NCBI GenBank assembly: GCA_964362215.1
Contig: CAYIDJ010000002.1
Location: 911 to 64,910 of the forward strand
DNA length: 64,000 nucleotides
Direction: 5' to 3'
DNA from: an uncultured Candidatus Saccharibacteria bacterium
Lineage (GTDB): Bacteria > Patescibacteriota > Minisyncoccia > UBA6257 > XYB1-36-10
The stretch's first letter is position 1. The number at the start of each line of letters is the position of its first letter. The translations under genes and the position numbers were made by a program. The notes under the pieces were generated by a model. The model worked only from the letters and a program-made list of their open reading frames with translations, ran no database searches and was not told where the DNA came from. This document shows, in pieces, positions 18,468 to 58,229 of this stretch.

Positions 18468-18848
18468 ATGTTTAATTTTGAAAAACCGACGGGGGGTGGG
18501 GCGGAGGAGGTAAAAAAGAAAACATTAAAGGAAGAAGAAAAGGAGAGAAGCGCTCATATTTTAGATAAGAAGGCGGCGGAGATGTTTAGAAAAGCGGATG
18601 AAGCAGATAATTTGGGCGCAACAATAGCCGGCGTAGAAAATAAGTTAATGAAGGAGACCAACCCGCAAATACGGAAAACATTAGAGATCCAATTAAAACG
18701 GTTAAAGGAAGAGAGAGGAGCTATGGGGAAGAGAGAATTAGAAGAAGAGGCTAAAAAGCTTAGAGAAAAGTTTAGACCAAAGAGACAAGAAGAGCTCAAA
18801 GGAGATTACAGTAGAACAAGATTAGGAGGAAAAAGGAGAGTCGCTTGA
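18468..18848 (+). CDS. Lys/Glu-rich hypothetical protein
   Basis: 126-aa charged, predicted-helical ORF that abuts ppsA. No motif recognised. Confidence 0.4.
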   Translation: MFNFEKPTGGGAEEVKKKTLKEEEKERSAHILDKKAAEMFRKADEADNLGATIAGVENKLMKETNPQIRKTLEIQLKRLKEERGAMGKRELEEEAKKLREKFRPKRQEELKGDYSRTRLGGKRRVA

Positions 18849-18856
18849 TTTTTGTT

Positions 18857-21259
18857 ATGGCAGTTTATACAAAAAGGTTTAAGGAAGTAGGAATAAAGGA
18901 CGTGGCGGAGGCGGGGGGAAAGAACGCTTCGCTGGGGGAGATGATACGGCATTTGAAGCCGCGGGGAGTTAATATCCCCGACGGATTTGTGGTGACGGCG
19001 GGAGCTTACCGATATTTTTTAAAAGAGGCGGGACTGGAGAAAGAAATAAAACAGATATTAAGAGGACTTGATACGAGTAAGGTGGAAACACTTACAGAAA
19101 AAACGCGACAGGTGAGGGAACTTATTAAGAAGGCGGAACTGCCGAACGATTTGAAGCAGGAGATTATTTTGGGATATCGGGCAATGGAGAAGGAGTACGG
19201 GCGGCGGGTGGATGTAGCGGTGCGGTCGTCGGCGACGGCGGAGGATTTGCCGGACGCGAGTTTTGCCGGAGAGCATGAGACATATCTTAATGTGCGGGGG
19301 GCGGAGGAGGTGTTGGAAAAGGTAAAAGCGGCGATGGCGTCGCTTTTCACGGCGCGGGCGGTATCGTACCGCGTGGACAAGAAGTTTGACCACTTTAAGG
19401 TGGCCTTGTCGGTGGGAGTGCAGAAGATGGTGCGGAGCGATAAGGCGGCTTCGGGAGTGATGTTTACGCTGGACACCGAGTCGGGATTTCGCGAGGTGGT
19501 TATGATTGACGGCGTGTGGGGGTTGGGGGAGATGATTGTGCAGGGAGAAGTAACACCGGACGAGTGGATAGTTTTCAAACCGACCATGGGGGAATTCAAG
19601 CCGATTATTGATAAACGTTTAGGCAAGAAGGACAGAAAGATGATTTATAAAGCGGCGGGCGAGGGGACGAGGGTGGTGAGAGTGCCGGCGGAGGAGAGAG
19701 ATAAGTTTGTTTTGACTGACCGCGAGGTGATGAAGATGGCGGAGTGGGGGGTGTTGATTGAGGAGCATTATTCGCGGGCGCGCGGACGGTGGCAGCCGAT
19801 GGATATAGAGTGGGCTAAGGACGGGGAGAGTAATGAACTTTATATAGTGCAGGCGCGGCCGGAGACGGTGCACGCGACGCGGGATATGACAAAAGTGCGG
19901 ACGTATCGGAGGAGCGGGGAGGGGAAGGTAATATGCGCGGGCGCGTCGGTGGGAAGTAAGATCGCAAGCGGGCCGGCGCGATTGATTTTAGACGTGAAGG
20001 ATATCGGCAGTTTTAGGGCGGGAGAGGTGCTGGTGACGGACATGACGGACCCGGATTGGGAGCCAATTATGAAAATCGCGGCGGCGATTGTTACCGATAA
20101 GGGCGGACGGACTAGCCACGCGGCGATAGTGTCGCGGGAACTGGGGATTCCGTGCGTGGTGGGAACGGGAAGAGTGACAAAACTCATAAAAACGGGCGAG
20201 ATGGTGACAGTGGACACAACCGGAAGCGAAGGGGCGGTGCTGAAAGGTAAAGTGCCGTTTACGGTAAGTGAGATTGATATTAAAAAAATACCGAAGCCGC
20301 CGATTAAAATAATGATGAATATCGCGACGCCGGAATCGGCGTTTGAAAAGTCCTTTTTGCCGAATGATGGAGTGGGATTGGCGCGAGAAGAGTTTATCAT
20401 CGCGGGAGATATAGGCATTCATCCGATGGCGCTAATCAACTATAACCGGATGTCGGATAAAGTGAAGCGGGAAATAGACAGGCGGACAGCGGGGTGGCGG
20501 AGCCGGACGGATTTTTATGTGGATAAGCTGGCGTACGGGGTTGCTAAAATTGGGGCGGCTTTTTACCCCAAGCCAGTGATTGTGAGATTTTCGGATTTTA
20601 AGAGTAACGAGTACGCGGCACTTTTAGGAGGAGACGAATTTGAGCCGAAGGAAGAGAATCCGATGCTGGGGTGGCGAGGGGCGTCGCGGTATTATCATCC
20701 ACAGTTCGCGGAAGCGTTTATATTGGAGATAAGGGCGATAAAAAAGGCGCGAGAGGTATTCGGGCTGACTAACATTCAGACGATGATACCGTTTTGCCGG
20801 ACAGTAGAAGAAGGAAAGAAGGTGCTGTCAATTATGGAGAAAAACGGATTGGCTAGACCGCGGGGAAGGCAGGCGGACAAGGAAGGAGACCTTAAAGTTT
20901 ATGTAATGTGCGAGATTCCGAGTAATGTGATTTTAGCGGAGGAGTTTTTGGATGAGTTTGACGGGATGAGTATAGGGAGTAATGACTTAACACAACTGGC
21001 GCTGGGCCTGGACCGCGATGGAGGGGAGTTAATTCGCGGCGTGGCGGATGAGCGGGACGAGGCAGTGAAGGAATTAGTGAGACAGGTGATAAAGATTGCC
21101 AAGAAGCGGGGGAAATACATCGGTATCTGCGGACAGGCGCCGTCGGACTATCCGGAGTTCGCGGAGTTTTTAGTGAAGGCGGGGATAAACAGTATCTCCC
21201 TTAATCCGGACGCGGTAGTGCCGACGATTATGGCGCTGGCGAGGAAGAAAGGAAAATAA
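18857..21259 (+). CDS. ppsA: Phosphoenolpyruvate synthase (pyruvate, water dikinase)
   Basis: 'GGKNASLGEM' ATP-grasp N-term, phosphohistidine region 'TDKGGRTSHAAIVSRELGIPCVVG', C-terminal PEP-utilising TIM barrel. ATG at 18857 preferred over TTG at 18845. Confidence 0.9.
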   Translation: MAVYTKRFKEVGIKDVAEAGGKNASLGEMIRHLKPRGVNIPDGFVVTAGAYRYFLKEAGLEKEIKQILRGLDTSKVETLTEKTRQVRELIKKAELPNDLKQEIILGYRAMEKEYGRRVDVAVRSSATAEDLPDASFAGEHETYLNVRGAEEVLEKVKAAMASLFTARAVSYRVDKKFDHFKVALSVGVQKMVRSDKAASGVMFTLDTESGFREVVMIDGVWGLGEMIVQGEVTPDEWIVFKPTMGEFKPIIDKRLGKKDRKMIYKAAGEGTRVVRVPAEERDKFVLTDREVMKMAEWGVLIEEHYSRARGRWQPMDIEWAKDGESNELYIVQARPETVHATRDMTKVRTYRRSGEGKVICAGASVGSKIASGPARLILDVKDIGSFRAGEVLVTDMTDPDWEPIMKIAAAIVTDKGGRTSHAAIVSRELGIPCVVGTGRVTKLIKTGEMVTVDTTGSEGAVLKGKVPFTVSEIDIKKIPKPPIKIMMNIATPESAFEKSFLPNDGVGLAREEFIIAGDIGIHPMALINYNRMSDKVKREIDRRTAGWRSRTDFYVDKLAYGVAKIGAAFYPKPVIVRFSDFKSNEYAALLGGDEFEPKEENPMLGWRGASRYYHPQFAEAFILEIRAIKKAREVFGLTNIQTMIPFCRTVEEGKKVLSIMEKNGLARPRGRQADKEGDLKVYVMCEIPSNVILAEEFLDEFDGMSIGSNDLTQLALGLDRDGGELIRGVADERDEAVKELVRQVIKIAKKRGKYIGICGQAPSDYPEFAEFLVKAGINSISLNPDAVVPTIMALARKKGK

Positions 21260-21307
21260 TTATATTTATTTTCCCCATTACCCATAGCTCCGCTATTCGC
21301 TTAACGT

Positions 21308-21339
21308 GAACAAATAGGAATTTGTTTATGTGATATACT
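21308..21339 (+). promoter_or_regulatory. Palindrome GAACAAATAGGAATTTGTTt + extended -10 (TGaTATACT) upstream of eno
   Basis: The 20-bp palindrome (21308-21327) lies 3 nt before TG-a-TATACT (21331-21339). The GTG start at 21347 is only 7 nt downstream of the -10. Confidence 0.5.
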
Positions 21340-21346
21340 TAAAAAA

Positions 21347-22573
21347 GTGAAGTTAGATGAGGCGACAGTAGAAATAATTAAGGACTCGCGGGGGAGCGAG
21401 ACAGTTTTGGCGCGGGTGGTGAGCGGAGATAACTGGGGAGAGGCATCGGTGCCATCGGGACGGAGCCGTTCCAGTTATGAAGCGTACGTGTTGGAGCCGC
21501 ACATTGCCCAGAAGCGTTTTTTGAGCGAGGTTAAGGAGAAGATGTTGGGGCGTAATTTTGAGCATCAAGATAAGTTTGATAATTTTTTGAGGCGGCTGGA
21601 CGGAACGGCGGACAAACGGCGACTGGGTGGAAACACGACCTTGGCGCTGTCTTTGGCTTTCGCGAGGACAGCGGCGCGGGAAAGGGGGTTGGAGCTTTAT
21701 GAATATATCAACCGGATATACCGCGGGGGCGGGCAGGCGATTCCACTTTCGTTGCCGCGCCTGATTTTTAATTTAATTAATGGAGGGAAGCATGCGATGG
21801 GGACAGATCTGTCTTTTCAGGAGTTTCAGGTTATTCCGCAACATGAGAGCGTGAGGGAGGGGGTGGCGGCGGGGAGAAATTTATATAAGCGGTTAGGAGA
21901 GGCGTTGAGGAAACAGTTTGGGAAGGATAATGTTGAGTTGGGAGATGAGGCGGGATACGCAGTTAAGTTTGGAAGTAACGAACGGGCGCTGGCCGCGCTG
22001 AAAGAGGCGGTGAGAGAAGATGCCTTTCGGAAAAGAGTGTCATTTGATTTGGGAATTGACGCGGCGGCTAATTCTTTTTATGACAAAGATAAAGGCATAT
22101 ATCGTGTGGGCAGAGAGGAGATGAAGGCGGGAGAGTTGGCGAAATATTACCGGCACTTGGCGCATAAGTACGGGCTGATGCTGATTGAGGATCCTTTTCA
22201 CGAGGAGGCGTTTGCTGATTTTGCGGGGTTGAATAAGACAACCGGATTTTACGTGGTGGCGGATGATTTGACGGCGACTAATTTAGCGAGAACGAAGATA
22301 GCGGTAGGGAACGCGGCGGCGGACGCGATGATTGTAAAGCCGAATCAGGCGGGAACACTAACGGAGACAGTTGAGGCGGCGCGGTACGCGCATCGTTCCG
22401 GCTGGCAGCTGATTGTCAGCCACCGGAGCGGGGAGACAGAGGACGATTTTATCGCGGACTTGGCAGTAGGAATCAACGCTTGGGGGATAAAGGCGGGGGC
22501 GCCGGAGACGGCAGTGAGGATGGCGAAGTATTATCGGTTGGAGAAAATTGAGAAGGAGTTGGAAGGGAAGTGA
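21347..22573 (+). CDS. eno: Enolase (short form)
   Basis: 'IIKDSRGSETV', 'IEDPFHEEAF', 'VADDLTATN', 'MIVKPNQAGTLTE', 'SHRSGETEDDFIADLAVG' are enolase signature blocks. Confidence 0.85.
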   Translation: MKLDEATVEIIKDSRGSETVLARVVSGDNWGEASVPSGRSRSSYEAYVLEPHIAQKRFLSEVKEKMLGRNFEHQDKFDNFLRRLDGTADKRRLGGNTTLALSLAFARTAARERGLELYEYINRIYRGGGQAIPLSLPRLIFNLINGGKHAMGTDLSFQEFQVIPQHESVREGVAAGRNLYKRLGEALRKQFGKDNVELGDEAGYAVKFGSNERALAALKEAVREDAFRKRVSFDLGIDAAANSFYDKDKGIYRVGREEMKAGELAKYYRHLAHKYGLMLIEDPFHEEAFADFAGLNKTTGFYVVADDLTATNLARTKIAVGNAAADAMIVKPNQAGTLTETVEAARYAHRSGWQLIVSHRSGETEDDFIADLAVGINAWGIKAGAPETAVRMAKYYRLEKIEKELEGK

Positions 22574-22590
22574 AAAATATGTTTTGTGAT

Positions 22591-22791
22591 ATTCTCCCCA
22601 TTACCATCGGCTCCGCTATTCGCTTAAAGCGAGTAATATTCACTCCCCTCTAATTTGGCTTATAAAACGGCTGGTTCCCGTTCCTCCCAAGGGGATTTTC
22701 CGACCAGCCGTTTTATAAAAGCCAAATTCTTCGTTGCGTTCATTTATCGCTAATTAAGCTCATAGAAGTCGCCAATGGTAATAGGGAGAAT
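22591..22791. repeat. Nested palindromic element, family A copy 1 (~200 bp)
   Basis: attctccccattaccatcggc (22591-22611) pairs with gccaatggtaatagggagaat (22771-22791). Inner arms ...ggcttataaaacggctggt / accagccgttttataaaagcc also pair. Homologous to 34824-35040. Confidence 0.85.
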
Positions 22792-22810
22792 AATTTACCC
22801 TTTTTATTTG

Positions 22811-22880
22811 GAGAGGGGGTTGGACTTAAGGTAGCCCGCCAAAATTTTTGCTTGCGCAAAAACTTAGGCGGGCTTTTGTT
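22811..22880 (+). terminator. Conserved 3-prime module: GAGAGGGGGTTGGACTTAAGGTAGCCCGCC hairpin + T tract
   Basis: agcccgccaaaatttttg-cttgcg-caaaaacttaggcgggct then tttgtttt. The same module recurs at 8 other sites. Confidence 0.7.
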
Positions 22881-22881
22881 T

Positions 22882-22917
22882 TATCCACTTATAATACATA
22901 TGTATTATAAGTGGATA
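22882..22917. repeat. 36-bp perfect palindrome P1 (TATCCACTTATAATACATATGTATTATAAGTGGATA)
   Basis: It is its own reverse complement. Related copies are at 37772-37807 and 46275-46310, with half copies at 26081-26095 and 42601-42610. Confidence 0.85.
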
Positions 22918-22950
22918 TAATTAAAGAAATAGCCCCGAGGTGGGTCGGGG

Positions 22951-23046
22951 CTAATGATGTTTATGTGGATTAATAAAAAAAAGGAAAAGAAGGGAAATTA
23001 GAAGGAACAGATAGAAGATAATAAAGGCATCAGAGGTGCGGAGCAT
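22951..23046 (-). CDS. Candidate 31-aa hydrophobic peptide (MLRTSDAFIIFYLFLLISLLFLFFINPHKHH)
   Basis: Below the ORF-track size cut-off. AAAGGA lies 7 nt before the ATG. There is one TM-length hydrophobic run. The stop overlaps hairpin agccccga-ggtgggt-cggggct (22931-22953). Confidence 0.3.
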   Translation of the reverse strand: MLRTSDAFIIFYLFLLISLLFLFFINPHKHH

Positions 23047-23120
23047 ATTTTTTTCCTTTCTTGAATGAGAGCTGATTAAATTATACCGAAAACTTGGCAG
23101 AGATGCTATAATTAAAAAAT

Positions 23121-24137
23121 ATGAAAATAGGGGTTTGGCAGATGGAGGGGTGGGAGGCGGAATATTTTACGAAGGCATTAGCGGGGCAGGAGGTGGAAAT
23201 TTTTTCGGGCAAGCTGTCGGCGGAGGAGTTGCCGGAGAAGCGTGATTTTGAGGCGATTTGCGTGTTTGTGGGGTTGCCAGTTTCGGTGGAGGTGATTGAT
23301 GCCTTTCCGAAATTAAAATTGATTACCACCCGTTCTACCGGGTATGACCATATTGATTTGAAAGCGGCGGGGGCGAAGGGAATACAAGTCGGATACGTGC
23401 CAAGTTACGGAGAGAACACGGTAGCGGAGCACACTTTCGGGCTGCTTTTAACTTTATCGCACCATATTTACGAAGGGTATGACCGGTTGCGGGAGAAGGG
23501 GGAGTACAGTTTTGAGGGGTTGGAGGGATTTGATTTGAAAGGGAGGACAATAGGAGTGGTGGGAACAGGACGAATCGGAGTTCACTCCATAAGGATAGCC
23601 AAGGGATTTGAGATGAAGGTAATTGCTTATGACGCGTATCCCAAGGCAGGGTTGGATAAGGAGATAGGGTTTGAATATAAGAAAAGTTTGGAAGAGCTGC
23701 TGGCAGAGGCGGATGTGGTAACACTGCACGTGCCGTATATGTCGGAGACGCATCATCTGATAAACAAAGATAATATCGGGAAGTTTAAGAAGGGGGCGGT
23801 GCTGATAAATACGTCGCGGGGAGCGGTGGTGGAGACGGACGCGCTAGTCCGGGCTCTTAAGGAGGGGCATTTGGGCGGGGCGGGGTTGGACGTGATGGAA
23901 GAGGAGGGGGTGATGGCGGACGAGATGGGATACTTACTTTCGGGAAGCGAGAAGACGGATTTGAAGGTGGTGTTAGAAAACCACGCTTTAATTGATATGC
24001 CAAACGTAATAGTGACGCCGCATTCGGCGTTTAACACACGGGAGGCGAAGGAGAGGATTTTGAAGACAACGGTGGAGAATATATTGAGTTTTGCGGAGAG
24101 CGGAAAAACAAAAAATTCAGTAGAAGATATTAAGTAG
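23121..24137 (+). CDS. D-isomer-specific 2-hydroxyacid dehydrogenase (D-lactate dehydrogenase-like)
   Basis: NAD motif 'GVVGTGRIGVHSIRIAKGF', 'LINTSRGAVV', catalytic 'VTPHSAFNT'. TGcTATAAT (23104-23112) lies 8 nt before the ATG. Confidence 0.85.
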   Translation: MKIGVWQMEGWEAEYFTKALAGQEVEIFSGKLSAEELPEKRDFEAICVFVGLPVSVEVIDAFPKLKLITTRSTGYDHIDLKAAGAKGIQVGYVPSYGENTVAEHTFGLLLTLSHHIYEGYDRLREKGEYSFEGLEGFDLKGRTIGVVGTGRIGVHSIRIAKGFEMKVIAYDAYPKAGLDKEIGFEYKKSLEELLAEADVVTLHVPYMSETHHLINKDNIGKFKKGAVLINTSRGAVVETDALVRALKEGHLGGAGLDVMEEEGVMADEMGYLLSGSEKTDLKVVLENHALIDMPNVIVTPHSAFNTREAKERILKTTVENILSFAESGKTKNSVEDIK

Positions 24138-24209
24138 TAAGTATTAAATATAAGAAGGAGGGTGTTATGTGGGTGAATTTGGTTTTTGGAGAGATAAAAA
24201 AGTATAAAA

Positions 24210-24238
24210 AACCCGCGATTATACCTAATCGCGGGTTA
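24210..24238. terminator. Bidirectional terminator hairpin between convergent genes
   Basis: aacccgcgatt-ataccta-atcgcgggtt, flanked by an A tract upstream. Confidence 0.6.
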
Positions 24239-24247
24239 ACTTGTAAG

Positions 24248-24817
24248 TCATTGAGCAGCGGAAATTTCTTCTTTTTCAAGAATCGCTGCTATTTTCTTAA
24301 TACAGGCATAGGCCTTGGGAGAGTGGATGCTGGTAAAGCAAAAGATGTTTTTATATTCTTCCACGGTTGAGGCGAATTCCATGGCCTTCTCCAAGGCCTT
24401 TCTTTCCACCTCGCTGCCGCCTGGAGCTTTCCGGCAGATACCCAGACACTCTTTCACGGTTGAGGCGAATTCCATGGCCTTCTCCAAGGCCTTTTTTTTC
24501 ATCTCGCTGCCGCCTGGAGCTTTCTGGCAGATATCCAGACACTCTTCCACGGTTGAGGCGAATTCCATGGCCTTCTCCAAGGCCTTTTTTTCCACCTCGC
24601 TGCCGCCTGGAGCTTTCCGGCAGATACCCAGACACTCTTCCACGGTTGAGGCGGAGAGAAGTTTCTTCATTATGTCGGTTTCCTCCGGTAATGGCACATC
24701 GAGGGCTGAACAAACTTGGTCTCTTTTGTCTTGACCAAGAATCAGGCACAACCTATCAACTAACACTGAATTGTCCATAACAGAACTCCCTTCACTTTTT
24801 TGGGTTTTAATTAACAC
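24248..24817 (-). CDS. Tandem-repeat protein (31-aa helical repeats ASTVEECLxICxKAPGGSExxKKALEKAMEF)
   Basis: The longest of several open frames over the repeat (189 aa) and the only one with unique N- and C-terminal flanks. It sits between a terminator and a divergent promoter region. Confidence 0.5.
   Translation of the reverse strand: MLIKTQKSEGSSVMDNSVLVDRLCLILGQDKRDQVCSALDVPLPEETDIMKKLLSASTVEECLGICRKAPGGSEVEKKALEKAMEFASTVEECLDICQKAPGGSEMKKKALEKAMEFASTVKECLGICRKAPGGSEVERKALEKAMEFASTVEEYKNIFCFTSIHSPKAYACIKKIAAILEKEEISAAQ
24362..24653. repeat. 93-bp tandem repeat, ~3.1 copies, near-identical
   Basis: cacggttgaggcgaattccatggcc recurs at 24362, 24455, 24548 and 24641, an exact 93-nt (31-codon) period. 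Confidence 0.9.
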
Positions 24818-24911
24818 ACCTTCAGGGTGTGACGCTGGGTATAATATATGATATTTATCACTTAATTGTCAAGTTTGAGGGGGAAGGGAAATGGAGTAGA
24901 ATATAGGGACT

Positions 24912-25955
24912 ATGGAAATTGTTTTAATTGTGGCGGTGGTGGCGCTGGTGGGGGTGGTGGGGTGGTTAGGGTGGGAGGTAAGAAAAGGGCAGGCGAGGCC
25001 GGAGGAGAAGAAAGATGACACTTCGCTTATTTTGTTGCAGAAGCAGATGGAGGGAATGACGCACGCGCTGGATGAGCGGATGCGGAACTCGGCGGAGGCG
25101 GTGGAGAGACAATTTAAGAGCAGTTTGGGAATTGTGCGGGAGGTGACGGAGAAGCTGACAAAACTGGACGAGACCAACCGCCAAGTAGTGGGGTTTGCCG
25201 ACCAGTTGAAAAGTTTTGAAAATATTTTGAAAAATCCGAAACAGAGGGGAATTTTGGGCGAGTATTTTCTGGAGGCGGTGCTAAAAAATGTGCTGCCGCC
25301 AAACGCCTATCAGTTGCAGTACAAGTTCGCGGACGGGGAAATTGTGGACGCGGCGATTTTCGTGAAAGACAAGATTATTCCAGTGGACTCAAAATTTTCA
25401 CTGGAAAATTACAATCGGATTGTGGAAGAAGACGAGCCGGGGAGGCGGGAGGAGCTGGAGAAAGTTTTTAAGATGGATTTGAAGAAGCGAATTGATGAGA
25501 CGTCAAAATATATCCGGCCGAAAGAGAACACGACTGATTTTGCCTTTATGTTTATACCGGCGGAGGGGATTTATTATGATTTGTTAGTAAACCAGGTGGG
25601 GGCGATAAAAGCGAATACGCGGGACTTGATTGAGTACGCCTTTAAGGAAAAGCACGTGATTATAATTTCGCCGACGACTTTCCACGCGTATCTGCAGACA
25701 ATTTTGCAGGGGTTGCGGGGAATGGAGATTGAGAAGTCGGCGCAGGAGATAAGGAAGCGGGTGGAGGATTTGGGTCGGCATATTGGGAGCTATGAGGAAT
25801 ATTTTAAGAAGGTGGGGAATAATTTGGCGACGACGGTTAATTCTTACAACAGCGCTTACAAGGAGTTGGGGAAGATTGATAAGGACGTTTTGAAAATAAG
25901 CGGGCAGTCGGCGGGAGTGGAGCCGGAGATGCTGGAGAGGCCGAGGGAGGAGTAG
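24912..25955 (+). CDS. rmuC: DNA recombination protein RmuC
   Basis: N-terminal TM, a coiled-coil, then 'DFAFMFIPAEGIYYDL' and 'VIIISPTTFHAYLQTI', typical of RmuC. Confidence 0.85.
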   Translation: MEIVLIVAVVALVGVVGWLGWEVRKGQARPEEKKDDTSLILLQKQMEGMTHALDERMRNSAEAVERQFKSSLGIVREVTEKLTKLDETNRQVVGFADQLKSFENILKNPKQRGILGEYFLEAVLKNVLPPNAYQLQYKFADGEIVDAAIFVKDKIIPVDSKFSLENYNRIVEEDEPGRREELEKVFKMDLKKRIDETSKYIRPKENTTDFAFMFIPAEGIYYDLLVNQVGAIKANTRDLIEYAFKEKHVIIISPTTFHAYLQTILQGLRGMEIEKSAQEIRKRVEDLGRHIGSYEEYFKKVGNNLATTVNSYNSAYKELGKIDKDVLKISGQSAGVEPEMLERPREE

Positions 25956-25987
25956 GGCGGGAGGAAAAAATATAAAGTTCAGGCAAT

Positions 25988-26095
25988 ATTCTCCCCATTA
26001 CCACTGGCTCCGCTATTCGCTTAAAGCGGATAATATTCGCTCCAATCCAATTTGGCTTATAAAATGACCGGTTCCCGTTGTTTTATAAGTGGATA
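25988..26095. repeat. Family A left arm only (truncated copy) fused to a half P1 palindrome
   Basis: attctccccattaccactggctccgctattcgcttaaagcgg...ggttcccgtt, then ttttataagtggata. The right arm is missing. Confidence 0.75.
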
Positions 26096-26144
26096 GAGTA
26101 TAAAAAGGTGATGTCAGGGTGATAGTTGTTGTATAATAGCGGGG

Positions 26145-26843
26145 ATGGAAGAAATAGAGCGGAAGAGACTGGAGGTGGAGAGGGACAAGAAGTGGCGTGT
26201 ACTTGGCCGGCGGGCGGCGGTTTTTGAGTGGATGCCATTCGTGGAGGTGGCAATGGTCGCGGGAAGCATGGCGATGGGGACGGCGCGGATAGAGTCGGAT
26301 TTTGATTTGATTTTGGGAATGAAGACGAGGAGAATTTTTACGGGGAGATTTTTTTTGACGATGATTTTAGCGGGGATGGGATGGCGGAAGCGGCGAAATA
26401 GCCAGACAACTCATAATCGGTTTTGCCTGAACCATTTTGTGACGGCGGAGTTGTATTGTTTGCGGCCGCCATATAATGTTTACTGGGAGGAATTGTATCG
26501 GCGGCTGGTACCGGTTTATGGAAAGCGGGAGGAAATAAACAAGTTTTTGGCGGCGAATAGGTGGGCTAGAGCGGGGGAGTTTAGAGATGACGGACGGTGG
26601 CGGGGCGGAAAGCGAAGATGGTTAAAAAGAGCCACGGAGAGAGTTATGGGCGGGCGGTTTGGTAATTGGCTGGAGCGGCGATTAGGAATTTGGCAGTTGA
26701 AGCGAATAGCGCAGAGCGCGGCGGAGGATATGGGATACAAACCGCGGATGCATTATGACTGGACAGAGTTGGAATTTCATCCGGATACAAGAAGGATAGA
26801 AGAGTGGCTGAAACAAGAGGGATATATTTATCAAAACAAATAG
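26145..26843 (+). CDS. Pol-beta-superfamily nucleotidyltransferase-domain protein
   Basis: 'VAGSMAMGTARIESDFDLILG' fits hG[GS]x9-13Dh[DE]h. The rest is helical and Arg/Trp-rich. Confidence 0.6.
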   Translation: MEEIERKRLEVERDKKWRVLGRRAAVFEWMPFVEVAMVAGSMAMGTARIESDFDLILGMKTRRIFTGRFFLTMILAGMGWRKRRNSQTTHNRFCLNHFVTAELYCLRPPYNVYWEELYRRLVPVYGKREEINKFLAANRWARAGEFRDDGRWRGGKRRWLKRATERVMGGRFGNWLERRLGIWQLKRIAQSAAEDMGYKPRMHYDWTELEFHPDTRRIEEWLKQEGYIYQNK

Positions 26844-26857
26844 GGACGCGACTTAAT

Positions 26858-26885
26858 TTGACATTTTTTGAAATATGTTTATACT
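26858..26885 (+). promoter_or_regulatory. Sigma70-type promoter for groES-groEL
   Basis: TTGACA (26858-26863), 16-nt spacer, TATACT (26880-26885). Confidence 0.55.
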
Positions 26886-26953
26886 GTTCTGGTGTATAAA
26901 GTTGGGTGTGAAACAGGTCGTTTTTAATTATTAACAAGCATTATTGGATAAAT

Positions 26954-27238
26954 ATGATAAAGCCATTAGGAAATCGGGTGGTAATAGAGCCGGCGAAGGA
27001 GGAGGCGGCGACATCATCGGGAATTGTTTTGCCGGAGACGTCAGAGAAGAGGCCGGTAAAAGGGACGGTAATAGCGGTGGGGCCGGGAAAGCTTACCGAG
27101 AAGGGAGAACGTTTGCCGATGTCGGTTAAAGAGGGAGATAAAGTTATTTTCAGCGAGTACAGCACGACGGAATTTAAGGAAGGAGATAAAAAATATCTGG
27201 TGGTGCAGGAAGATGATATACTCGGAATTTTGGAGTAG
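26954..27238 (+). CDS. groES: Co-chaperonin GroES
   Basis: 'IKPLGNRVVIEP...SGIVLPE...KGTVIAVGPG' is the canonical Cpn10 pattern. Confidence 0.95.
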   Translation: MIKPLGNRVVIEPAKEEAATSSGIVLPETSEKRPVKGTVIAVGPGKLTEKGERLPMSVKEGDKVIFSEYSTTEFKEGDKKYLVVQEDDILGILE

Positions 27239-27300
27239 TACTCAAAAATTCCGGAATGACGAATTAATAATCAATAAATTACTAAATTTCTAATCAATAA

Positions 27301-28941
<1,641 letters not shown>

Positions 28942-35191: not shown

Positions 35192-37120
35192 TTAGAGTTT
35201 GTAGATGAAGATGGAGGTGCCGGCGCGGTAGTCGGGAGGCGGGGGTTCGGCGAGGTTAACGGGTAAGCCGCGGGCGGTTTTTAGCCAGAGATACTCGTTT
35301 TCGGGAGCGCGGGCAAAGCCGGGAGCGGGGATGGCAGTGGCGGAAGCGAGAGTGTTGACGGAGACGGCCAGCCACTCAATTCCTTCTTCACGGGGATTGT
35401 TTTTTTCCGACCACCAAGGAACGAAGGCATTGCCGAGGCGATAAGAGGGAGAATCGCCGCCGAAGTAGTCAACGGCGATTTTGTCTATCCGGCGGCTATT
35501 TACAAAATCATCCAGGCGTTTTAGATCTTGTCCCCAGTCATAATTGGAATCGGTAACAACGCGATAGCCATTTAACGTACCTCCGCCGAGTTCATTGAAG
35601 TAGGAAAGGAAGAAAGGAGAGGTAACGGCGATGGTGATAGCGAGCCAGACGAGGAGAGCGCTTAAGGCGGTAAATTTAACAGCGAGACGGGAGAAAATAC
35701 CGACCAGAGAACGGAAACGGTTTAAGAATGAAACGGAGGAGAGATGATAAGGAAAAGAAACAATCCAGTTTTTAACGGAGCCGGCGGCGAGGATGTAGAG
35801 CATGGGAACAGTAGGTAAAATGTGGCGGACACCGATATTAAGCGGGCTGGTAATGCTGTAGCCCCAGTAAAAAACAACAAAGAGAATCAGAGAAAATTCA
35901 ATGAAATTTGTATGGAGGTATTCACCGAGAGTGAAGCCGCGGCGGGAGAAGGTGCGTTTCATTTTAATCAGTGCCAAGAGGAGGCCGGCCAGAATAAAAA
36001 TCAGGGAAGGAAGCGGTTCTTTAAGAAGGAAGATGACGGGAAAATAAGAGAGCCAGCCGGCGGCGGAGACTTCGCCTAAGAAGTAGCCGGTGTTGCCGGC
36101 GGCGGAGCGTTGAGAGACCATTAGGACGCCGAGCAGGTATTCACCCAGCGGCTGGGTCAGGCGGTGGCCGGAGAGAAATATATCAACATCAGCGAGGCAG
36201 CGCGCCGGACGGCAGGTTTGCCCGGCGGGAGTGGGGCCGCCAGCAAATGAGTTTAAACTGAAGACAGTATCACGGTGTTGGCGGGAGGTGGGGTAGCCGA
36301 TAGTAAATACAAAGTAAACGGCATAGATGACAACGGTTCCGATAAGGAAGACAGAAAGAAGTTGTCCCGCCTTTTTTAATTTTTCGCGAAAGAGGTAAAG
36401 AAGTTTTGTTTGGAGAGTAGTGTTTTTAAGGTTAACAGCGGCGTTGCGGATAAGGTGGACGGCAGTAATGATAATAAAGAACGGTATCAGGAGAACAACG
36501 GAGAATTTAAGAAGTTGGGCGAGGCCGAAAACGAGACCAGCAATAATTAAAGAGCGGCGATTAGGGCGTTCCAGAAAGTTAAGGAAAGCCCAAGAAGCGG
36601 CGAGGATACCCAGAGCGGCGCCGATGTCGGTGGTGACATAGTGGCCGTGAGCGAGGACGGTGGGAGAGAGAGATAAGAAGGCGGTGGGGAGAAGCGCCCA
36701 CCAGCGGCCGAGAAGACGGGAGGAAAGGCCATAGGTTATGATAATCAGAAGAAGAGTCAGAAGCATTGGGCCGAGGCGAGCGGAAAAGAGAATCTGGTCG
36801 GGATTATTTCCGGATTCAAAAAGGAATTGCGTGCCAGCGGTCCATTGGCCGTTAATGTCTTCCTGCCAGGAGGGGCGGTCGGAGGGGAAGTTGAGATTTA
36901 AAAAAAGAAGGGGAAGAGCGGAAATGACCTTAACGAGCGGAGGATGTTCGGGGTTAAGACGGTAATTAAAAAATTTTAGGTAGGAGTAGCCGGCGGGGAT
37001 ATGCGCCAGCTCATCCATAACAACAGAGTCGCTCGACGCGGCGGAGAGCATAAAAGAGAAAGAGACGGCGATAAGGGCGGCGACAAGGAACCAAGGAACG
37101 AAAGATCTGATTTTGTTCAT
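35192..37120 (-). CDS. GT39/ArnT-PMT-like integral-membrane glycosyltransferase
   Basis: 642 aa and polytopic. The N-terminal loop 'VVMDELAHIPAGYSYLKF..YRLNPEHPPLVK' carries the DE motif of GT-C enzymes. Confidence 0.75.
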   Translation of the reverse strand: MNKIRSFVPWFLVAALIAVSFSFMLSAASSDSVVMDELAHIPAGYSYLKFFNYRLNPEHPPLVKVISALPLLFLNLNFPSDRPSWQEDINGQWTAGTQFLFESGNNPDQILFSARLGPMLLTLLLIIITYGLSSRLLGRWWALLPTAFLSLSPTVLAHGHYVTTDIGAALGILAASWAFLNFLERPNRRSLIIAGLVFGLAQLLKFSVVLLIPFFIIITAVHLIRNAAVNLKNTTLQTKLLYLFREKLKKAGQLLSVFLIGTVVIYAVYFVFTIGYPTSRQHRDTVFSLNSFAGGPTPAGQTCRPARCLADVDIFLSGHRLTQPLGEYLLGVLMVSQRSAAGNTGYFLGEVSAAGWLSYFPVIFLLKEPLPSLIFILAGLLLALIKMKRTFSRRGFTLGEYLHTNFIEFSLILFVVFYWGYSITSPLNIGVRHILPTVPMLYILAAGSVKNWIVSFPYHLSSVSFLNRFRSLVGIFSRLAVKFTALSALLVWLAITIAVTSPFFLSYFNELGGGTLNGYRVVTDSNYDWGQDLKRLDDFVNSRRIDKIAVDYFGGDSPSYRLGNAFVPWWSEKNNPREEGIEWLAVSVNTLASATAIPAPGFARAPENEYLWLKTARGLPVNLAEPPPPDYRAGTSIFIYKL

Positions 37121-37183
37121 AGCGCGATTTTTTAAAAAAGGATATACTCTGGTTACTTATTATTATAGGCCATAAAGAGACAG

Positions 37184-37768
37184 ATGTTATTCACAAGAAG
37201 GAGTTTTGAGCCGCGAGCAACGGTGAGGTTGGCGAGGGAATTGCTGGGAAAGGTTTTAGTTCGCCGGATAGGACGGAAAGAAATACGGGCGGTAATTACG
37301 GAGACGGAGGCGTATCACGGGCTGAAAGACAAAGCCAGCCACGCGGCGAGAGGAAAGACGAAGCGGAACGCGCCGATGTGGGGAGCGGCCGGACACTGGT
37401 ATGTTTATTTTGTTTACGGAAATCACTGGATGCTTAACTTGGTGACGGGACCGGAAGAATACCCGGCCGCGATTTTAATAAGGGGAATTTCAAAAATTAA
37501 AAATCAAAAATCAAAATTTAGGAGGTCTGCTTCGCAGACTTTAATTAAAAATAAAGACGGTGTAGTCAGTGGGCCGGGGAGGGTGGCGAAGTTTTTGAAA
37601 ATTGACGGGAGTTTGAGCGGGCGGCCGGCAAGCCGGAAGACGGGACTATGGATTGAGGACGGAGGAGAAAAAATAAAGCCGTCGCGGATTAAGGCAGCGG
37701 CGAGAGTGGGGGTCAATTACGCGGGGAAGGAGTGGGCAGGGAAGAAGTGGAGGTTTAAATTACTTTAA
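37184..37768 (+). CDS. DNA-3-methyladenine glycosylase (AAG/Mpg family)
   Basis: 'LARELLGKVLV', 'ITETEAYHG..DKASHA', 'GHWYVYFVYGNHWMLNLVTG', 'AILIRG', 'GPGRVAKFLKI'. Confidence 0.85.
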   Translation: MLFTRRSFEPRATVRLARELLGKVLVRRIGRKEIRAVITETEAYHGLKDKASHAARGKTKRNAPMWGAAGHWYVYFVYGNHWMLNLVTGPEEYPAAILIRGISKIKNQKSKFRRSASQTLIKNKDGVVSGPGRVAKFLKIDGSLSGRPASRKTGLWIEDGGEKIKPSRIKAAARVGVNYAGKEWAGKKWRFKLL

Positions 37769-37771
37769 TAT

Positions 37772-37856
37772 TATCCACTTATAAAACATATGTTTTATAA
37801 GTGGATAGGTTGGGTGTGGTTACTATAATTTTTCCACGGTCGTTGGAAAATTATAG
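37772..37856. repeat. Two-hairpin module: P1 palindrome (37772-37807) + H2 hairpin (37823-37856)
   Basis: tatccacttataaaacatatgttttataagtggata, then ctataatttttccacggtcgttggaaaattatag. The same pair is found in reverse order at 46231-46310. Confidence 0.8.
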
Positions 37857-37895
37857 TTGATATAAAAATTGTAGAATTTTTAGTAAATAAAAAAA

Positions 37896-37997
37896 GGGTG
37901 GTCGAGGTAACAATATATGGGCGAATAAATTCGCCATATGGGCGAATAAATTCGCCCCTCAAAGAGCTCCGTCGACCACCCAAGATAGCTCTTTGAG
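37896..37997 (+). other. Structured intergenic segment with pseudoknot-type pairing and a 21-bp tandem duplication
   Basis: gggtggtcga (37896-37905) pairs with tcgaccaccc (37972-37981). ctcaaagagct (37958-37968) pairs with agctctttgag (37987-37997). atatgggcgaataaattcgcc occurs twice (37915-37956). Confidence 0.4.
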
Positions 37998-38058
37998 TAT
38001 CTGGTTGTAATTATACTCCTATTTTTATTTTTTGTCAACAGGGAGTATATTAAAACCT

Positions 38059-39066
38059 ATGAAAATGTCACTGGGAATTGTGGGGATGCCGAACGTGGGA
38101 AAGTCCACCTTGTTTAAGATGCTGACGCGGCAGGAGGTAAATATCGCTAATTATCCGTTCGCGACGGTGGACCCGAACGTGGGAGTGGTGGCGGTGCCGG
38201 ATGAGCGGCTGGAAAAGTTGAATAAGATGTCGCGAAGTGCCAAGAAGATTCCGGCGGTGGTTGAGTTTTATGATATCGCGGGGCTGGTGAAGGGGGCACA
38301 CGAGGGAGAGGGGCTGGGCAACCAGTTTTTAGCCAATATTAGGGAGACGAACGCGATTGTCCACTTGGTCAGGTGTTTTAAGGACGAGGAGGTTATTCAC
38401 GTGGAGGGAGGAACGGATCCGGCGCGAGACGCGAAGGTGGTTAATTTAGAATTGATTTTTAAGGACCTGGAGACGATAGAAAAGCGGATAGGAAGTTTGG
38501 AAAAAGAGGCGAGGGCGGGAGATAAGGAGAAGGCAAAATCGCTTAAGGCGGCGAAGGAAGTGAAGGAAAAACTGCTGGCTGAAAAAATGGTCAACGAGAT
38601 GCCGGAGGAGTTGAGGGAAGACGCGGCGATAAGGGAACTTAATTTACTGACAGCCAAGCCGCAGATATTTTTACTGAACGGGAAAGAGGAGGAGGTGGGG
38701 AAAGAGATAAAGGATTATATTGCTTCTTTGGGAGCGGATTATCTGGTTTTGGATTTGAAAAAAGAAGAGGGGTTGGATAAGTTAATAAAAAAATCGTACG
38801 AGATTTTGGGGCTGATTAGCTTTTTTACCACCGGTGAGGACGAGACGCGGGCGTGGACGATTAGACGCGGGACAAAAGGGCCGGAGGCGGCGGGAACAAT
38901 CCACACGGATTTTGAGGCAAAGTTTATTCGGGCGGAGGTGGTGGGGTGGGAGGAGTTGTTGGCGGCGGGGAGTTGGGCGGCGGCCAAACAAAAAGGAAAG
39001 ATGAGATTAGAGGGAAAGGAGTATGTGGTGAGGGATGGGGATGTGGTGGAAATAAGGCATGGGTAG
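38059..39066 (+). CDS. ychF: Ribosome-binding ATPase YchF
   Basis: 'GIVGMPNVGKSTLF', 'ANYPFATVDPNVG', C-terminal TGS-like 'IHTDFEAKFIRAEV'. ATG at 38059 preferred over TTG at 38032. Confidence 0.9.
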   Translation: MKMSLGIVGMPNVGKSTLFKMLTRQEVNIANYPFATVDPNVGVVAVPDERLEKLNKMSRSAKKIPAVVEFYDIAGLVKGAHEGEGLGNQFLANIRETNAIVHLVRCFKDEEVIHVEGGTDPARDAKVVNLELIFKDLETIEKRIGSLEKEARAGDKEKAKSLKAAKEVKEKLLAEKMVNEMPEELREDAAIRELNLLTAKPQIFLLNGKEEEVGKEIKDYIASLGADYLVLDLKKEEGLDKLIKKSYEILGLISFFTTGEDETRAWTIRRGTKGPEAAGTIHTDFEAKFIRAEVVGWEELLAAGSWAAAKQKGKMRLEGKEYVVRDGDVVEIRHG

Positions 39067-39081
39067 TAGAAAGGTATGGTA

Positions 39082-39217
39082 ATTGCTTTTTCCGCTATAT
39101 TTTGCCGGGTACGAACTGGCTCGCTCCAGCGGCGAGCCGTTCTCTGATCTCGCCGGCCGGAAGAACCAAGCCCGGCCGGCTCTGATAGCCCCTCTAAAAT
39201 ATAGCGGGAAAAGCAAT
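39082..39217. repeat. Nested palindromic element, family D
   Basis: attgctttttccgctatatttt (39082-39103) is the reverse complement of aaaatatagcgggaaaagcaat (39196-39217). The interior is GC-rich. Confidence 0.8.
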
Positions 39218-39242
39218 AAAAAAATAAAACAATACTTTTTTA

Positions 39243-39290
39243 GAGGGAGAGTTAGGTAATATAGCGTCCGCCCAAGGCGGATTTTATTTT
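39243..39290 (+). terminator. Conserved 3-prime module (GAGGGAGAGTTAGGTAATATAGCGTCCGCC hairpin + T tract)
   Basis: tccgcc-caa-ggcgga (39267-39281), then ttttattttt. Confidence 0.65.
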
Positions 39291-39345
39291 TATAAAAAAA
39301 CCGCTCAGGGCGAGCGGCGGAAAAAGGGTGGATTTGTCAAATGGT

Positions 39346-40908: not shown

Positions 40909-40923
40909 ATTACAAAATATTTG

Positions 40924-57800: not shown

Positions 57801-58191
57801 CGAGTAAATAAGGAAAGGACAGAAAAGTCATTCTGACGTTACGCCCGAACATTGGAATGACACAAGGAAGTTTGAACTTTGGGGTGGTTTGTGGGAAAAT
57901 AGGCGATAGTAGAGATTTATAAAAGAATAAAGAAAGAGAGGATTTGGCGATGGTAGGTTTAGTTAATCCAGCAGGTCCGCCTGTTTTGGGGGTTTTTAAG
58001 GTGACGTATCCAAATCCAATAAAGGAGATACCGAGCGGGATTAAGCGGTTAGAGGGTCCTTTTGCGCCGGAGAGTTCGCCTTCACAAATTATTATCGCTG
58101 ACACAAGGCAGTTTCGGCGTTGGCCGGTGCTTCATCCGTACAAGGGGCATAATTTAGATGTCCTCGCGTGAAATAAATAAGGATAACGCCG

Positions 58192-58229
58192 CCCGCCTAA
58201 ATTTTTTCCTAAGCAAAAATTTAGGCGGG
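58192..58229 (+). terminator. Terminator-like hairpin of the CCCGCC-AT-rich family
   Basis: cccgcctaaatttttt-cctaag-caaaaatttaggcggg, then tttttgttt. Confidence 0.6.

What the first reader, a model, noticed from the sequence alone, without database searches (positions are those of the whole stretch)
24248..24817. Gene built from near-identical 93-bp (31-aa) tandem repeats, open in several frames
Exact 93-nt periodicity is seen at 24362, 24455, 24548 and 24641, with only a few substitutions between units. The units encode ASTVEECL(G/D)IC(R/Q)KAPGGSE(V/M)(E/K)(K/R)KALEKAMEF, plus a degenerate fourth repeat.

The high DNA identity implies recent expansion or ongoing concerted evolution. Copy number is likely variable between cells or strains.

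Four overlapping ORFs on both strands are open across the array, so the real frame is not certain.

Each repeat has a CxxxC pair and a predicted helix-turn-helix-like (alpha-solenoid) character. I do not recognise the family.
Basis: seen in the sequence. Interest (0 to 1): 0.5.

Follow-up and report, generated by a model that had tools for sequence, protein, structure and literature searches.

The report
Recently expanded helical-repeat protein gene
This is a real minus-strand gene for a small all-helical repeat protein from a widespread but unnamed family of groundwater ultra-small bacteria, in which one 31-residue helix-loop-helix unit was recently triplicated; it is a tidy case of repeat-protein growth, with no new kind of mechanism.

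Summary
A 93-bp tandem array of 3.2 copies (94% matches, no indels) lies at 24357-24653 and is the only strong tandem repeat in the 64-kb window.

The frame question is settled. The gene runs on the minus strand from ATG 24778 to the stop at 24248-24250 (176 aa). It has its own promoter-like site, Shine-Dalgarno sequence and terminator hairpin. The other open frames are by-products of the peptide composition.

The protein folds confidently (AF2 pLDDT 90.8) into stacked helical hairpins, one hairpin per 31-aa unit. It sits between an N-cap and a C-cap that are conserved in relatives.

It belongs to a large family: 576 clusters at 50% identity with E<=1e-3. That family has no Pfam, NCBIfam, PHROG, PADLOC or PDB sequence match. 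The only named relatives are from Zambryskibacteria (CPR).

Most family members have diverged units. This gene is the extreme case (93.5% unit identity), so the array is a recent local triplication. The units differ at six sites. All six are G<->A on the coding strand, all change the amino acid, and all fall at family-variable positions.

The CxxxC pair is not a family motif. Assemblies with 1, 2 and 3 units exist, but short-read collapse cannot be excluded.

Function is inferred only: a cytoplasmic protein-binding scaffold. Interest is low to moderate.

The parts
24843..24872 (-). Promoter-like site TTGACA-18 nt-TATATT upstream of the gene
   Evidence: 11 of 12 consensus matches, the best site in the region. 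This is a consensus match only; no expression data were available.
24786..24793 (-). Shine-Dalgarno-like GAAGGGAG, 7 nt upstream of the ATG
   Evidence: Read directly from the sequence.
24248..24778 (-). Coding sequence, 176 aa plus the stop codon at 24248-24250. The listed 189-aa ORF starts at an upstream in-frame GTG at 24817.
   Evidence: An identical protein, P0001, exists in an ENA assembly. Relatives align from the ATG. AF2 pLDDT is 90.8.
24653..24778 (-). N-terminal cap, aa 1-42: two helices (M..V...I..ILG....Q[IV]..AL) plus a linker helix
   Evidence: Conserved in P0004, P0010, P0036, P0042 and P0063. Predicted helices are 3-14, 16-26 and 33-42.
24560..24652 (-). Repeat unit 1 (aa 43-73), one helical hairpin
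24467..24559 (-). Repeat unit 2 (aa 74-104)
24374..24466 (-). Repeat unit 3 (aa 105-135)
24251..24373 (-). C-terminal capping repeat (aa 136-176): TVEEYxxIFxxTxIHSPxAYxCIxKIAxILEKE. Its first 17 nt are identical to the start of each unit.
   Evidence: Conserved across relatives. The 17-nt identity is shown.
24210..24237 (-). Intrinsic-terminator-like hairpin: 12-bp stem, 4-nt loop, followed by a T-run in the minus-strand direction

Best explanation
**Gene and product.** The region is a stand-alone, monocistronic minus-strand gene (24778->24248). It encodes a 19-kDa, acidic protein with no signal peptide, which is therefore presumably cytoplasmic. The protein is all-alpha: a short alpha-solenoid of stacked helical hairpins.

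**Unit structure.** Each 31-residue unit is helix A (T-V-E-E-C-L-x-I-C), a loop (K-A-P-G-G-S) and helix B (E-x-x-x-K-A-L-E-K-A-M-E-F). An older N-terminal cap and a C-terminal capping repeat flank the units.

**Origin of the array (inferred).** The 93-bp array is one hairpin unit that was recently duplicated to three copies. The likely mechanism is slipped-strand or unequal recombination, probably seeded by the 17-nt identity between the start of a unit and the start of the C-cap. Because 93 is a multiple of 3, gain or loss of a unit lengthens or shortens the solenoid by exactly one hairpin without breaking the frame or the fold.

**Divergence since duplication.** Only six G<->A transitions have accumulated. 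All lie at surface-type positions that vary across the family; the core positions are untouched.

**Family and function.** The protein belongs to a large family with no curated model and no tested function. Its only named relatives come from Zambryskibacteria (Candidate Phyla Radiation). The family consensus is A-[TS]-T-x-[ED]-E-[CA]-x-x-[VI]-[YF]-x-x-A-P-x-G-S-E-x-x-x-x-A-L-x-K-[AW]-L. Its members occur as free cytosolic, membrane-tethered or lipoprotein forms. The most likely function, inferred from the fold class alone, is a protein-protein interaction scaffold or adaptor whose binding surface scales with unit number.

**Shown:** the gene, its frame, the repeat anatomy, the fold class, family membership, and the recency of the expansion.

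**Inferred:** the duplication mechanism, the cytoplasmic location and the binding function.
For: **Repeat.**

**Gene signals.** (promoter, terminator; RBS).

**Frame and homology.**
- An identical 176-aa protein exists in an independent ENA assembly, and P0004 from Zambryskibacteria matches at E 8e-26.
- The alignment-based search gives 12 proteins.
- The exhaustive HMMER search gives 576 representatives at E<=1e-3, 198 at <=1e-10 and 28 at <=1e-30.
- N- and C-caps align across relatives.

**Fold.**
- AF2 gives pLDDT 90.8 and pTM 0.77, with 11 helices whose boundaries repeat every 31 residues.

**Recency.**
- Units are 94-98% identical at the DNA level.
- This protein is the family extreme: 93.5% unit identity against a family median best of 29%.

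**Substitution pattern.**
- There are six variable sites. All are G<->A on the coding strand, none is synonymous, and G is the majority base at 5 of 6.
- All six fall in low-information columns (0.37-1.15 bits), whereas core columns exceed 2 bits.

**Recurrent unit duplication elsewhere in the family.**
- L019: period 93, 2.2 copies, 91%.
- L020: period 114, 2.8 copies, 84%.

**Location.**
- The window protein has no hydrophobic N-terminus.
- TM-anchored relatives have 109 K+R after the helix against 26 before it, which places their repeats in the cytoplasm.

**Stand-alone gene.** Relatives share no conserved neighbours.
Against: - No expression or proteomic evidence exists. The promoter and terminator are consensus matches only.
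- Function is inferred from fold class alone. There is no conserved gene neighbourhood, no fused enzymatic domain and no characterised homologue to anchor it.
- Codon usage is atypical for its strand. Third-position GC skew is -0.06 to -0.14, against about -0.6 in bona fide minus-strand genes and +0.6 in plus-strand genes. The codon score is 0.00 against 0.50+-0.14 for the plus-strand reference ORFs. The gene may therefore be a recent arrival or a recent inversion.
- The all-nonsynonymous pattern is not significant on its own (P about 0.08-0.12).
- Some family members are lipoproteins, so a cytoplasmic role is not universal for the module.
Confidence: 0.75

Rival explanations
1. The array is a contingency-type locus. 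Unit number varies among cells or strains of one population through frequent in-frame gain and loss, and recombination between units shuffles the six variable surface residues.
For: - Three assemblies have 99-100% identical flanks but carry 3, 2 and 1 units: window/L009, L001 and L002.
- L009 and L001 come from replicate filters of the same well, Hain_H43_01um R1 and R2.
- The first unit of L001 has the mosaic haplotype AGGAAA. It combines U3-like and U2-like states and does not occur in the window allele. The N-cap is directly joined to the 'A' state only 12 nt away, which is hard to produce by mis-joining k-mers of the window allele.
Against: - The 1- and 2-unit contigs are 931 and 1279 bp, and the L001 record name gives cov 4.
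- The 1-unit Logan contig is exactly N-cap->U1->C-cap. That walk seems permitted in a short-k de Bruijn graph, because 46 nt of identical sequence separate the last U1-specific site from the unit/C-cap divergence point. The distance comes; that Logan uses k=31 is my recollection and was not checked here.
- Another Logan contig, L016, stops 13 nt into U3, which shows that assemblers fail at this array.
- No read-level data could be examined.
Confidence: 0.35
2. The three-unit array in the window is itself an assembly artefact: an over-expansion or a chimera of strain variants of a one- or two-unit gene.
For: - The source is a short-read metagenome.
- Shorter versions exist.
- Contigs break at the array.
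Against: - Two different assemblies give the identical three-unit order and SNPs: the 78-kb NCBI contig the window comes from, and the 12.3-kb ENA contig with different ends.
- Each unit has its own SNP haplotype (GGGGGA, GAAAAA, AGGGGG). Neighbouring variable sites are 3-23 nt apart within a unit and 41 nt apart across a unit junction, so ordinary 100-150-nt reads would link them (typical read length is assumed).
- Related genomes carry comparable arrays.
Confidence: 0.08
3. The protein is a cysteine-based metal- or redox-binding protein, with each CxxxC pair acting as a ligand site.
For: - The protein has 10 Cys in 176 aa (5.7%, against a family median of 2.0%).
- There is a sub-threshold Pfam hit to thioredoxin-like [2Fe-2S] ferredoxin (E 0.0025, 18.1 bits against a cut-off of 24.8).
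Against: - The Pfam hit is below the gathering score and covers 27 residues.
- The second Cys of the pair is Tyr or Phe in 66% of family units, and the first is Ala or Val in 38%.
- Both lie i/i+4 inside helix A, at positions that are hydrophobic across the family (for the helix, for the residue types). That is typical of hairpin packing positions; burial was not measured on the model.
- No His, Cys or Asp partners are conserved.
Confidence: 0.06
4. One of the other open frames, or the plus strand, is the real product, or the array is a non-coding repeat.
For: - Five of six frames of the unit are stop-free.
- On the plus strand each unit carries a hairpin plus T-run that looks like a terminator.
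Against: - Only the minus-strand 176-aa frame has homologues (it is the single hit among all six-frame ORFs of the window, E 1e-62).
- The stop-free alternative frames are expected from the peptide composition in 26% of draws.
- The alternative ORFs score lower on codon usage (-0.11, -0.18 and -0.69, against 0.00).
- No Rfam family lies in the region.
Confidence: 0.02

Closest known systems
Tetratricopeptide (TPR) and TPR-like helical-hairpin repeats, including designed consensus TPRs
   Same: - Two antiparallel helices per unit, stacked into a solenoid.
- Weak Foldseek matches to Prp6 HAT/TPR, the FKBP52 TPR and TTC5.
- Typical role as protein-binding scaffolds (established knowledge).
   Different: - Unit length is 31 aa (or 38 in relatives), not 34.
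- The TPR signature residues are absent.
- No Pfam TPR, Sel1, HEAT or PPR model matches the window protein at E<=10, or ten relatives at E<=0.1.
- A profile search of all PDB sequences finds no TPR or SLR chain.
- No Foldseek PDB hit reaches E<=1e-3.
De novo designed helical repeat proteins (DHR-type, e.g. PDB 6xt4, 8f6q, 5cwj)
   Same: - They share near-identical short helix-loop-helix units rich in E, K, A and L, with idealised geometry.
   Different: - They are artificial, so there is no evolutionary relationship.
- The similarity reflects idealised repeat geometry and composition.
Uncharacterised 'hypothetical protein' A2431_02750 of Candidatus Zambryskibacteria (P0004) and its relatives
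   Same: - Same N-cap, same unit motif and same C-cap.
- E 8e-26, 34% identity over 76% of the query.
- It is likewise a stand-alone gene.
   Different: - It is 280 aa with about 7 diverged units of mixed 31- and 38-aa length, and has no near-identical DNA repeats.
- It lies in an accessory region with Fic/RhuM, HEPN_AbiU2 and SocA_Panacea genes, whereas the window gene sits between housekeeping genes.
Rapidly evolving in-frame tandem repeats in proteins, e.g. the Borg tandem repeats (PMC9879509)
   Same: A recently formed, perfectly in-frame tandem DNA repeat within an ORF of an uncultivated subsurface organism (title and abstract seen).
   Different: According to that abstract, Borg repeats create intrinsically disordered regions. 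Here each unit is a confidently folded structural module, and there is only one such array in 64 kb.

Membership tests
Uncurated CPR 'A-T-T-x-E-E-C' helical-hairpin repeat family (no Pfam or NCBIfam accession) | Repeat unit matching A-[TS]-T-x-[ED]-E-[CA]-x-x-[VI]-[YF]-x-x-A-P-x-G-S-E-x-x-x-x-A-L-x-K-[AW]-L, with a 31- or 38-aa period | tested here: met
   Three units match the consensus built from 404 units of 151 proteins. Spacing modes are 31 and 38 aa.
Uncurated CPR 'A-T-T-x-E-E-C' helical-hairpin repeat family (no Pfam or NCBIfam accession) | N-terminal cap (M..x.V...I..ILG....QI..ALG) and C-terminal cap (T.EEY..IF..T..HSPEAY.CIRKIA.IL) of the cytosolic subgroup | tested here: met
   Alignments A2, A3 and A4. 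Invariant columns include G15, Q21, T138, S153 and I160.
Uncurated CPR 'A-T-T-x-E-E-C' helical-hairpin repeat family (no Pfam or NCBIfam accession) | Significant whole-protein sequence similarity to other members | tested here: met
   E 8e-26 to P0004. A profile search gives 576 representative clusters at E<=1e-3.
TPR (Pfam clan CL0020, TPR_1/TPR_2 and related) | Match to a TPR-type profile; 34-residue unit with the W4-L7-G8-Y11-A20-F24-A27-P32 signature (signature recalled from established knowledge) | tested here: not met
   No TPR, Sel1, HEAT or PPR model is listed at E<=10 for the window protein, or at E<=0.1 for ten relatives. The period is 31, not 34.
TPR (Pfam clan CL0020, TPR_1/TPR_2 and related) | Helix-turn-helix hairpins stacked into a superhelix | tested here: met
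   [not shown]
Sel1-like repeat (SLR) | 36-44-residue units matching PF08238 | tested here: not met
   No hit. The unit is 31 aa.
HEAT / PBS-lyase HEAT-like | 37-47-residue units matching a HEAT profile | tested here: not met
   No hit for the window protein. The only trace is a 'faint' precomputed PF02985 mark on the distant relative P0058.
Thioredoxin-like [2Fe-2S] ferredoxin (PF01257) | Score above the gathering threshold, and four conserved Cys ligands | tested here: not met
   18.1 bits against a cut-off of 24.8, over 27 residues. The Cys positions are not conserved in the family.
Phase- or length-variable contingency locus | Different repeat numbers among reads from one population | not testable with these tools
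   Only assembled contigs were available. They show 1, 2 and 3 units, but assembly collapse is plausible.

The most novel reading that the evidence does not exclude
The array is a true length-variable locus in an ultra-small CPR bacterium. Cells of one aquifer population carry 1, 2 or 3 hairpin units. Recombination between units reshuffles a handful of exclusively surface-changing substitutions (6 of 6 nonsynonymous). Together these give a rapidly tunable recognition surface on a previously undescribed, widespread repeat scaffold. This would be a bacterial analogue of diversifying repeat-based binders, possibly used in dealing with hosts or mobile elements.
Probability: 0.12. Interest if true: 0.55.

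Novelty: new variant of a known kind. Interest (0 to 1): 0.3.

Why it matters
- **An unnamed family gets a definition.** At least 576 clusters at 50% identity are currently annotated only as 'hypothetical protein', with no Pfam, NCBIfam or PDB anchor. They now have a defined unit, caps, three architectures and a confident fold. That is enough to seed a curated domain model.
- **A snapshot of solenoid growth.** The window gene shows one hairpin copied in-frame, the core kept intact, and only surface positions changing.
- **A testable hypothesis for CPR biology.** If the copy-number differences between replicate samples are real, the locus would be a rare example of a length-variable structural protein in CPR bacteria, whose surface and interaction biology is largely unknown.
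- **Otherwise it is ordinary.** Recently duplicated helical repeats are a well-known way for repeat proteins to evolve.

Tried and rejected
- **Curated protein libraries.** Pfam, NCBIfam, PHROGs and PADLOC were scanned with the window protein and up to ten relatives. Nothing reached a curated threshold.
- **HTH idea for the N-cap.** Ten N-caps were scanned against Pfam at E<=1. Only two distant members gave sub-threshold HTH-type hits, and the window protein gave none. The idea was dropped.
- **PDB sequence profile search.** Best E was 0.068, which is not meaningful.
- **Foldseek against PDB.** No hit at E<=1e-3. The afdb50 library was unavailable.
- **Conserved gene neighbourhood.** Seven contexts were examined and shared no partner.
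- **Paralogues in the window.** None.
- **Phage-borne relatives.** None in IMG/VR with the patterns used.
- **Genome and metagenome locus scans.**
  - The narrower alignment found only 1 genome locus and 4 metagenome loci. The family's taxonomic range therefore rests on two Zambryskibacteria-labelled records.
  - Cluster look-ups returned no organism names.
- **Positive-selection claim.** 0 synonymous against 6 nonsynonymous differences is not significant alone (P 0.08-0.12).
- **Look-up of the RmuC neighbour.** It was tried as a route to more assemblies of the array, but the protein is not on record.
- **Literature.** No paper describing this repeat family was found.

Full report
**Observation.** Tandem Repeats Finder reports one array at 24357-24653 with period 93, 3.2 copies, 94% matches and no indels, score 552. 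An independent seed-and-extend search gives three 111-nt copies spaced exactly 93 nt apart at 94-98% identity. No other tandem repeat in the 64-kb window scores 150 or more.

**Which strand and frame.** The gene is on the minus strand, from ATG 24778 to the stop at 24248-24250 (176 aa).
- A promoter-like TTGACA-18-TATATT (24872..24843) and a GAAGGGAG Shine-Dalgarno 7 nt before the ATG precede it. A 12-bp hairpin with a T-run (24237..24210) follows it.
- Among all six-frame ORFs of the window, only this frame matches the family profile (E 1e-62).
- Relatives start at the aligned MDN/MDK, which favours the ATG over the upstream GTG at 24817.
- The unit is stop-free in five of six frames. When the same peptide is back-translated with this genome's codon usage, four or more alternative frames stay open in 26% of draws. 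The multiple open frames are a by-product of an E/K/A/L/G-rich peptide repeated three times.

**Anatomy.**
- Units U1 (24652-24560), U2 (24559-24467) and U3 (24466-24374) each encode 31 residues.
- AlphaFold2, given a 12-sequence alignment, yields a confident model (pLDDT 90.8, pTM 0.77) with 11 helices. Each unit is helix A (about 10 residues), a five-residue loop, helix B (about 13 residues) and a three-residue turn.
- Residues 1-42 form an N-terminal cap.
- Residues 136-176 form a C-terminal capping repeat. It shares only its first 17 nt (ASTVEE) with the units.
- Both caps are conserved in relatives that are only 34-54% identical.

**Family.**
- The word-indexed search found few relatives: P0004 from Candidatus Zambryskibacteria at E 8e-26, and 12 proteins with a profile.
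- The exhaustive HMMER search of 1.84 billion representatives found 576 clusters at E<=1e-3, 198 at <=1e-10 and 28 at <=1e-30, with lengths of about 100-770 aa.
- From 404 units I derived the consensus A-[TS]-T-[VFIL]-[ED]-E-[CA]-x-x-[VI]-[YF]-x-x-A-P-x-G-S-E-[LIV]-[EK]-x-x-A-L-x-K-[AW]-L. Unit spacing has two modes, 31 and 38 residues.
- Three architectures occur:
  - The cytosolic form seen here.
  - A form with an N-terminal signal-anchor helix. It has 109 K+R just after the helix against 26 before it, so its repeats face the cytoplasm. It carries a different C-cap (AICRAADIIR).
  - A lipoprotein form with a lipobox.
- No Pfam, NCBIfam, PHROG or PADLOC model reaches threshold.
- No PDB sequence is related, and Foldseek finds no PDB structure at E<=1e-3.
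- The fold class, an alpha-solenoid of helical hairpins, is thus supported. Membership of TPR, Sel1 or HEAT at the sequence level was tested and not met.

**How recent is the array.**
- Within the family, near-identical units are the exception. The best within-protein unit identity has a median of 29%, and the window protein is the extreme at 93.5%.
- Two other lineages carry their own DNA-level arrays: period 93, 2.2 copies, 91% in L019, and period 114, 2.8 copies, 84% in L020. P0042, encoded in L019, is the closest non-allelic relative found (54% identity).
- Unit duplication therefore recurs in the family, while long-term homogenisation does not.
- The three window units differ at six sites only. 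All six are G<->A on the coding strand, G is the majority base at five, and all are nonsynonymous.
- The nonsynonymous excess alone is not significant (P 0.08-0.12). However, all six sites lie in low-information columns of the family unit (0.37-1.15 bits), and the conserved core columns (A1, T3, C7, I10, Y11, P15, S18, A24, K27, all at or above 2 bits) are untouched.
- I infer a recent triplication by slippage or unequal recombination, plausibly seeded by the 17-nt identity between unit start and C-cap start. Strand-biased transitions then accumulated and were filtered by the need to keep the hairpin core.

**The CxxxC pair.** It is lineage-specific. The second position is Tyr in 51% and Phe in 15% of family units, and Cys in only 7%. 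The first is Cys 41%, Ala 26% and Val 12%. Both lie i/i+4 within helix A. The sub-threshold hit to a 2Fe-2S thioredoxin-like model (18.1 bits against a cut-off of 24.8) is not meaningful. A metal or redox role is unlikely.

**Copy-number variation.**
- The window comes from a 78-kb NCBI contig. The 12.3-kb ENA contig from Hainich well H43, 0.1-um filter, replicate R1, carries the identical three-unit allele.
- A 1279-bp contig from replicate R2 (cov 4) has two units. A 931-bp Logan contig has one. Their flanks are 99-100% identical to the window.
- The one-unit contig is exactly N-cap->U1->C-cap. This walk looks permitted in a short-k graph, because 46 nt of shared sequence separate the last U1-specific site from the unit/C-cap divergence point. 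Another Logan contig ends 13 nt into U3. Collapse is therefore plausible.
- The first unit of the two-unit contig has a mosaic haplotype (AGGAAA) that is absent from the window allele, and the N-cap is joined directly to the variant base 12 nt away. This argues for at least one real allelic difference.
- I cannot decide the question without reads.

**Context and composition.**
- The gene lies alone on the minus strand between a 2-hydroxyacid dehydrogenase (23121-24137, +) and an ORF I call RmuC-like from its sequence (24912-25955, +; no domain search was run on it). Enolase and PPDK lie upstream.
- Relatives sit next to unrelated genes: Fic and ClpP, LeuRS, L33, EF-P and SecG. No operon partner hints at function.
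- The window shows an extreme, strand-wide compositional asymmetry. Plus-strand GC skew is +0.17 to +0.45 throughout. Third-position GC skew is about +0.6 in plus-strand genes and about -0.6 in genuine minus-strand genes such as CTP synthase and a PMT_2 glycosyltransferase.
- The repeat gene is the only coding stretch in 22-27 kb where the plus-strand skew turns negative; one intergenic window at 22600-22899 dips to -0.06. Its third-position skew of -0.06 to -0.14 fits neither class.
- This suggests that the gene arrived or was inverted fairly recently and is only partly equilibrated. This is inference.

**Mechanism and verdict.**
- The best-supported reading is a small cytoplasmic alpha-solenoid that acts as a protein-binding scaffold. 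One hairpin was recently triplicated in-frame, which extends the stack by two units.
- Shown: gene, frame, fold class, family and recency.
- Inferred: binding function, cytoplasmic location and duplication mechanism.
- The finding is a sound observation with a mostly correct structural guess. It documents an uncurated but widespread repeat family and a clean example of repeat growth, but it needs no new biology. I rate it as a new variant of a known kind, with interest about 0.3.

Noticed in passing
window 1-64000, quantified on genes at 18845-28941 (+) and 35192-42552 (-): There is an extraordinary strand-wide compositional asymmetry. Plus-strand GC skew is +0.17 to +0.45 across all 64 kb. 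Third-codon-position GC skew is about +0.6 in plus-strand genes and about -0.6 in bona fide minus-strand genes (CTP synthase, a PMT_2 glycosyltransferase), so synonymous codon choice flips with orientation (Ala GCG on +, GCC on -). This is far stronger than the replication skew I recall for most bacteria.
   Followed up: partly
window 24250-24850: The repeat gene is the only coding stretch in 22-27 kb where plus-strand GC skew turns negative (-0.10 to -0.17); an intergenic window at 22600-22899 dips to -0.06. Its GC3 skew (-0.06 to -0.14) matches neither plus- nor minus-strand resident genes. This suggests recent acquisition or inversion.
   Followed up: partly
window 24383-24398, 24476-24491, 24569-24584 (+ strand): On the plus strand each unit carries GGCCTT-CTCC-AAGGCC followed by a T-run. 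That gives three tandem terminator-like hairpins antisense to the gene, facing the convergent 2-hydroxyacid dehydrogenase gene. They arise from the codons for (K)KALEKA and may be incidental.
   Followed up: no
window 47568-48063 (+): A bacterial class A RNase P RNA match (214.5 bits) spans 496 nt against a 367-position model, so it must contain sizeable insertions.
   Followed up: no
window 58000-62000: GC content drops to 0.36-0.37, against about 0.49 elsewhere, while the GC skew stays positive. This may be an island or an AT-rich gene cluster.
   Followed up: no
window 24930-24966 (+): A GTG/GTGGCGGTG short-period repeat encodes the Val/Ala/Gly-rich N-terminal hydrophobic segment of the RmuC-like protein. 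The 12.3-kb ENA contig ends exactly at 24930, the start of this repeat.
   Followed up: no
L019 429-635 and L020 5124-5448: Relatives carry their own recent unit arrays: period 93 with 2.2 copies at 91%, and period 114 with 2.8 copies at 84%, the latter in a lipoprotein-type member. Unit duplication therefore recurs independently in the family, in both the 31-aa and 38-aa registers.
   Followed up: partly
L003 4028-10579: The Zambryskibacteria homologue P0004 sits in an accessory-looking region with HEPN_AbiU2, Fic/RhuM, a SocA_Panacea domain protein, and a LexA-S24-methyltransferase fusion. The window gene, by contrast, has a housekeeping context.
   Followed up: no
family members P0058, P0074, P0099, P0111, P0071 (not in the window): Some family members begin with a lipoprotein-type signal peptide (e.g. 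...LAVAGCSS). The same hairpin module is therefore also deployed outside the cytoplasm.
   Followed up: partly
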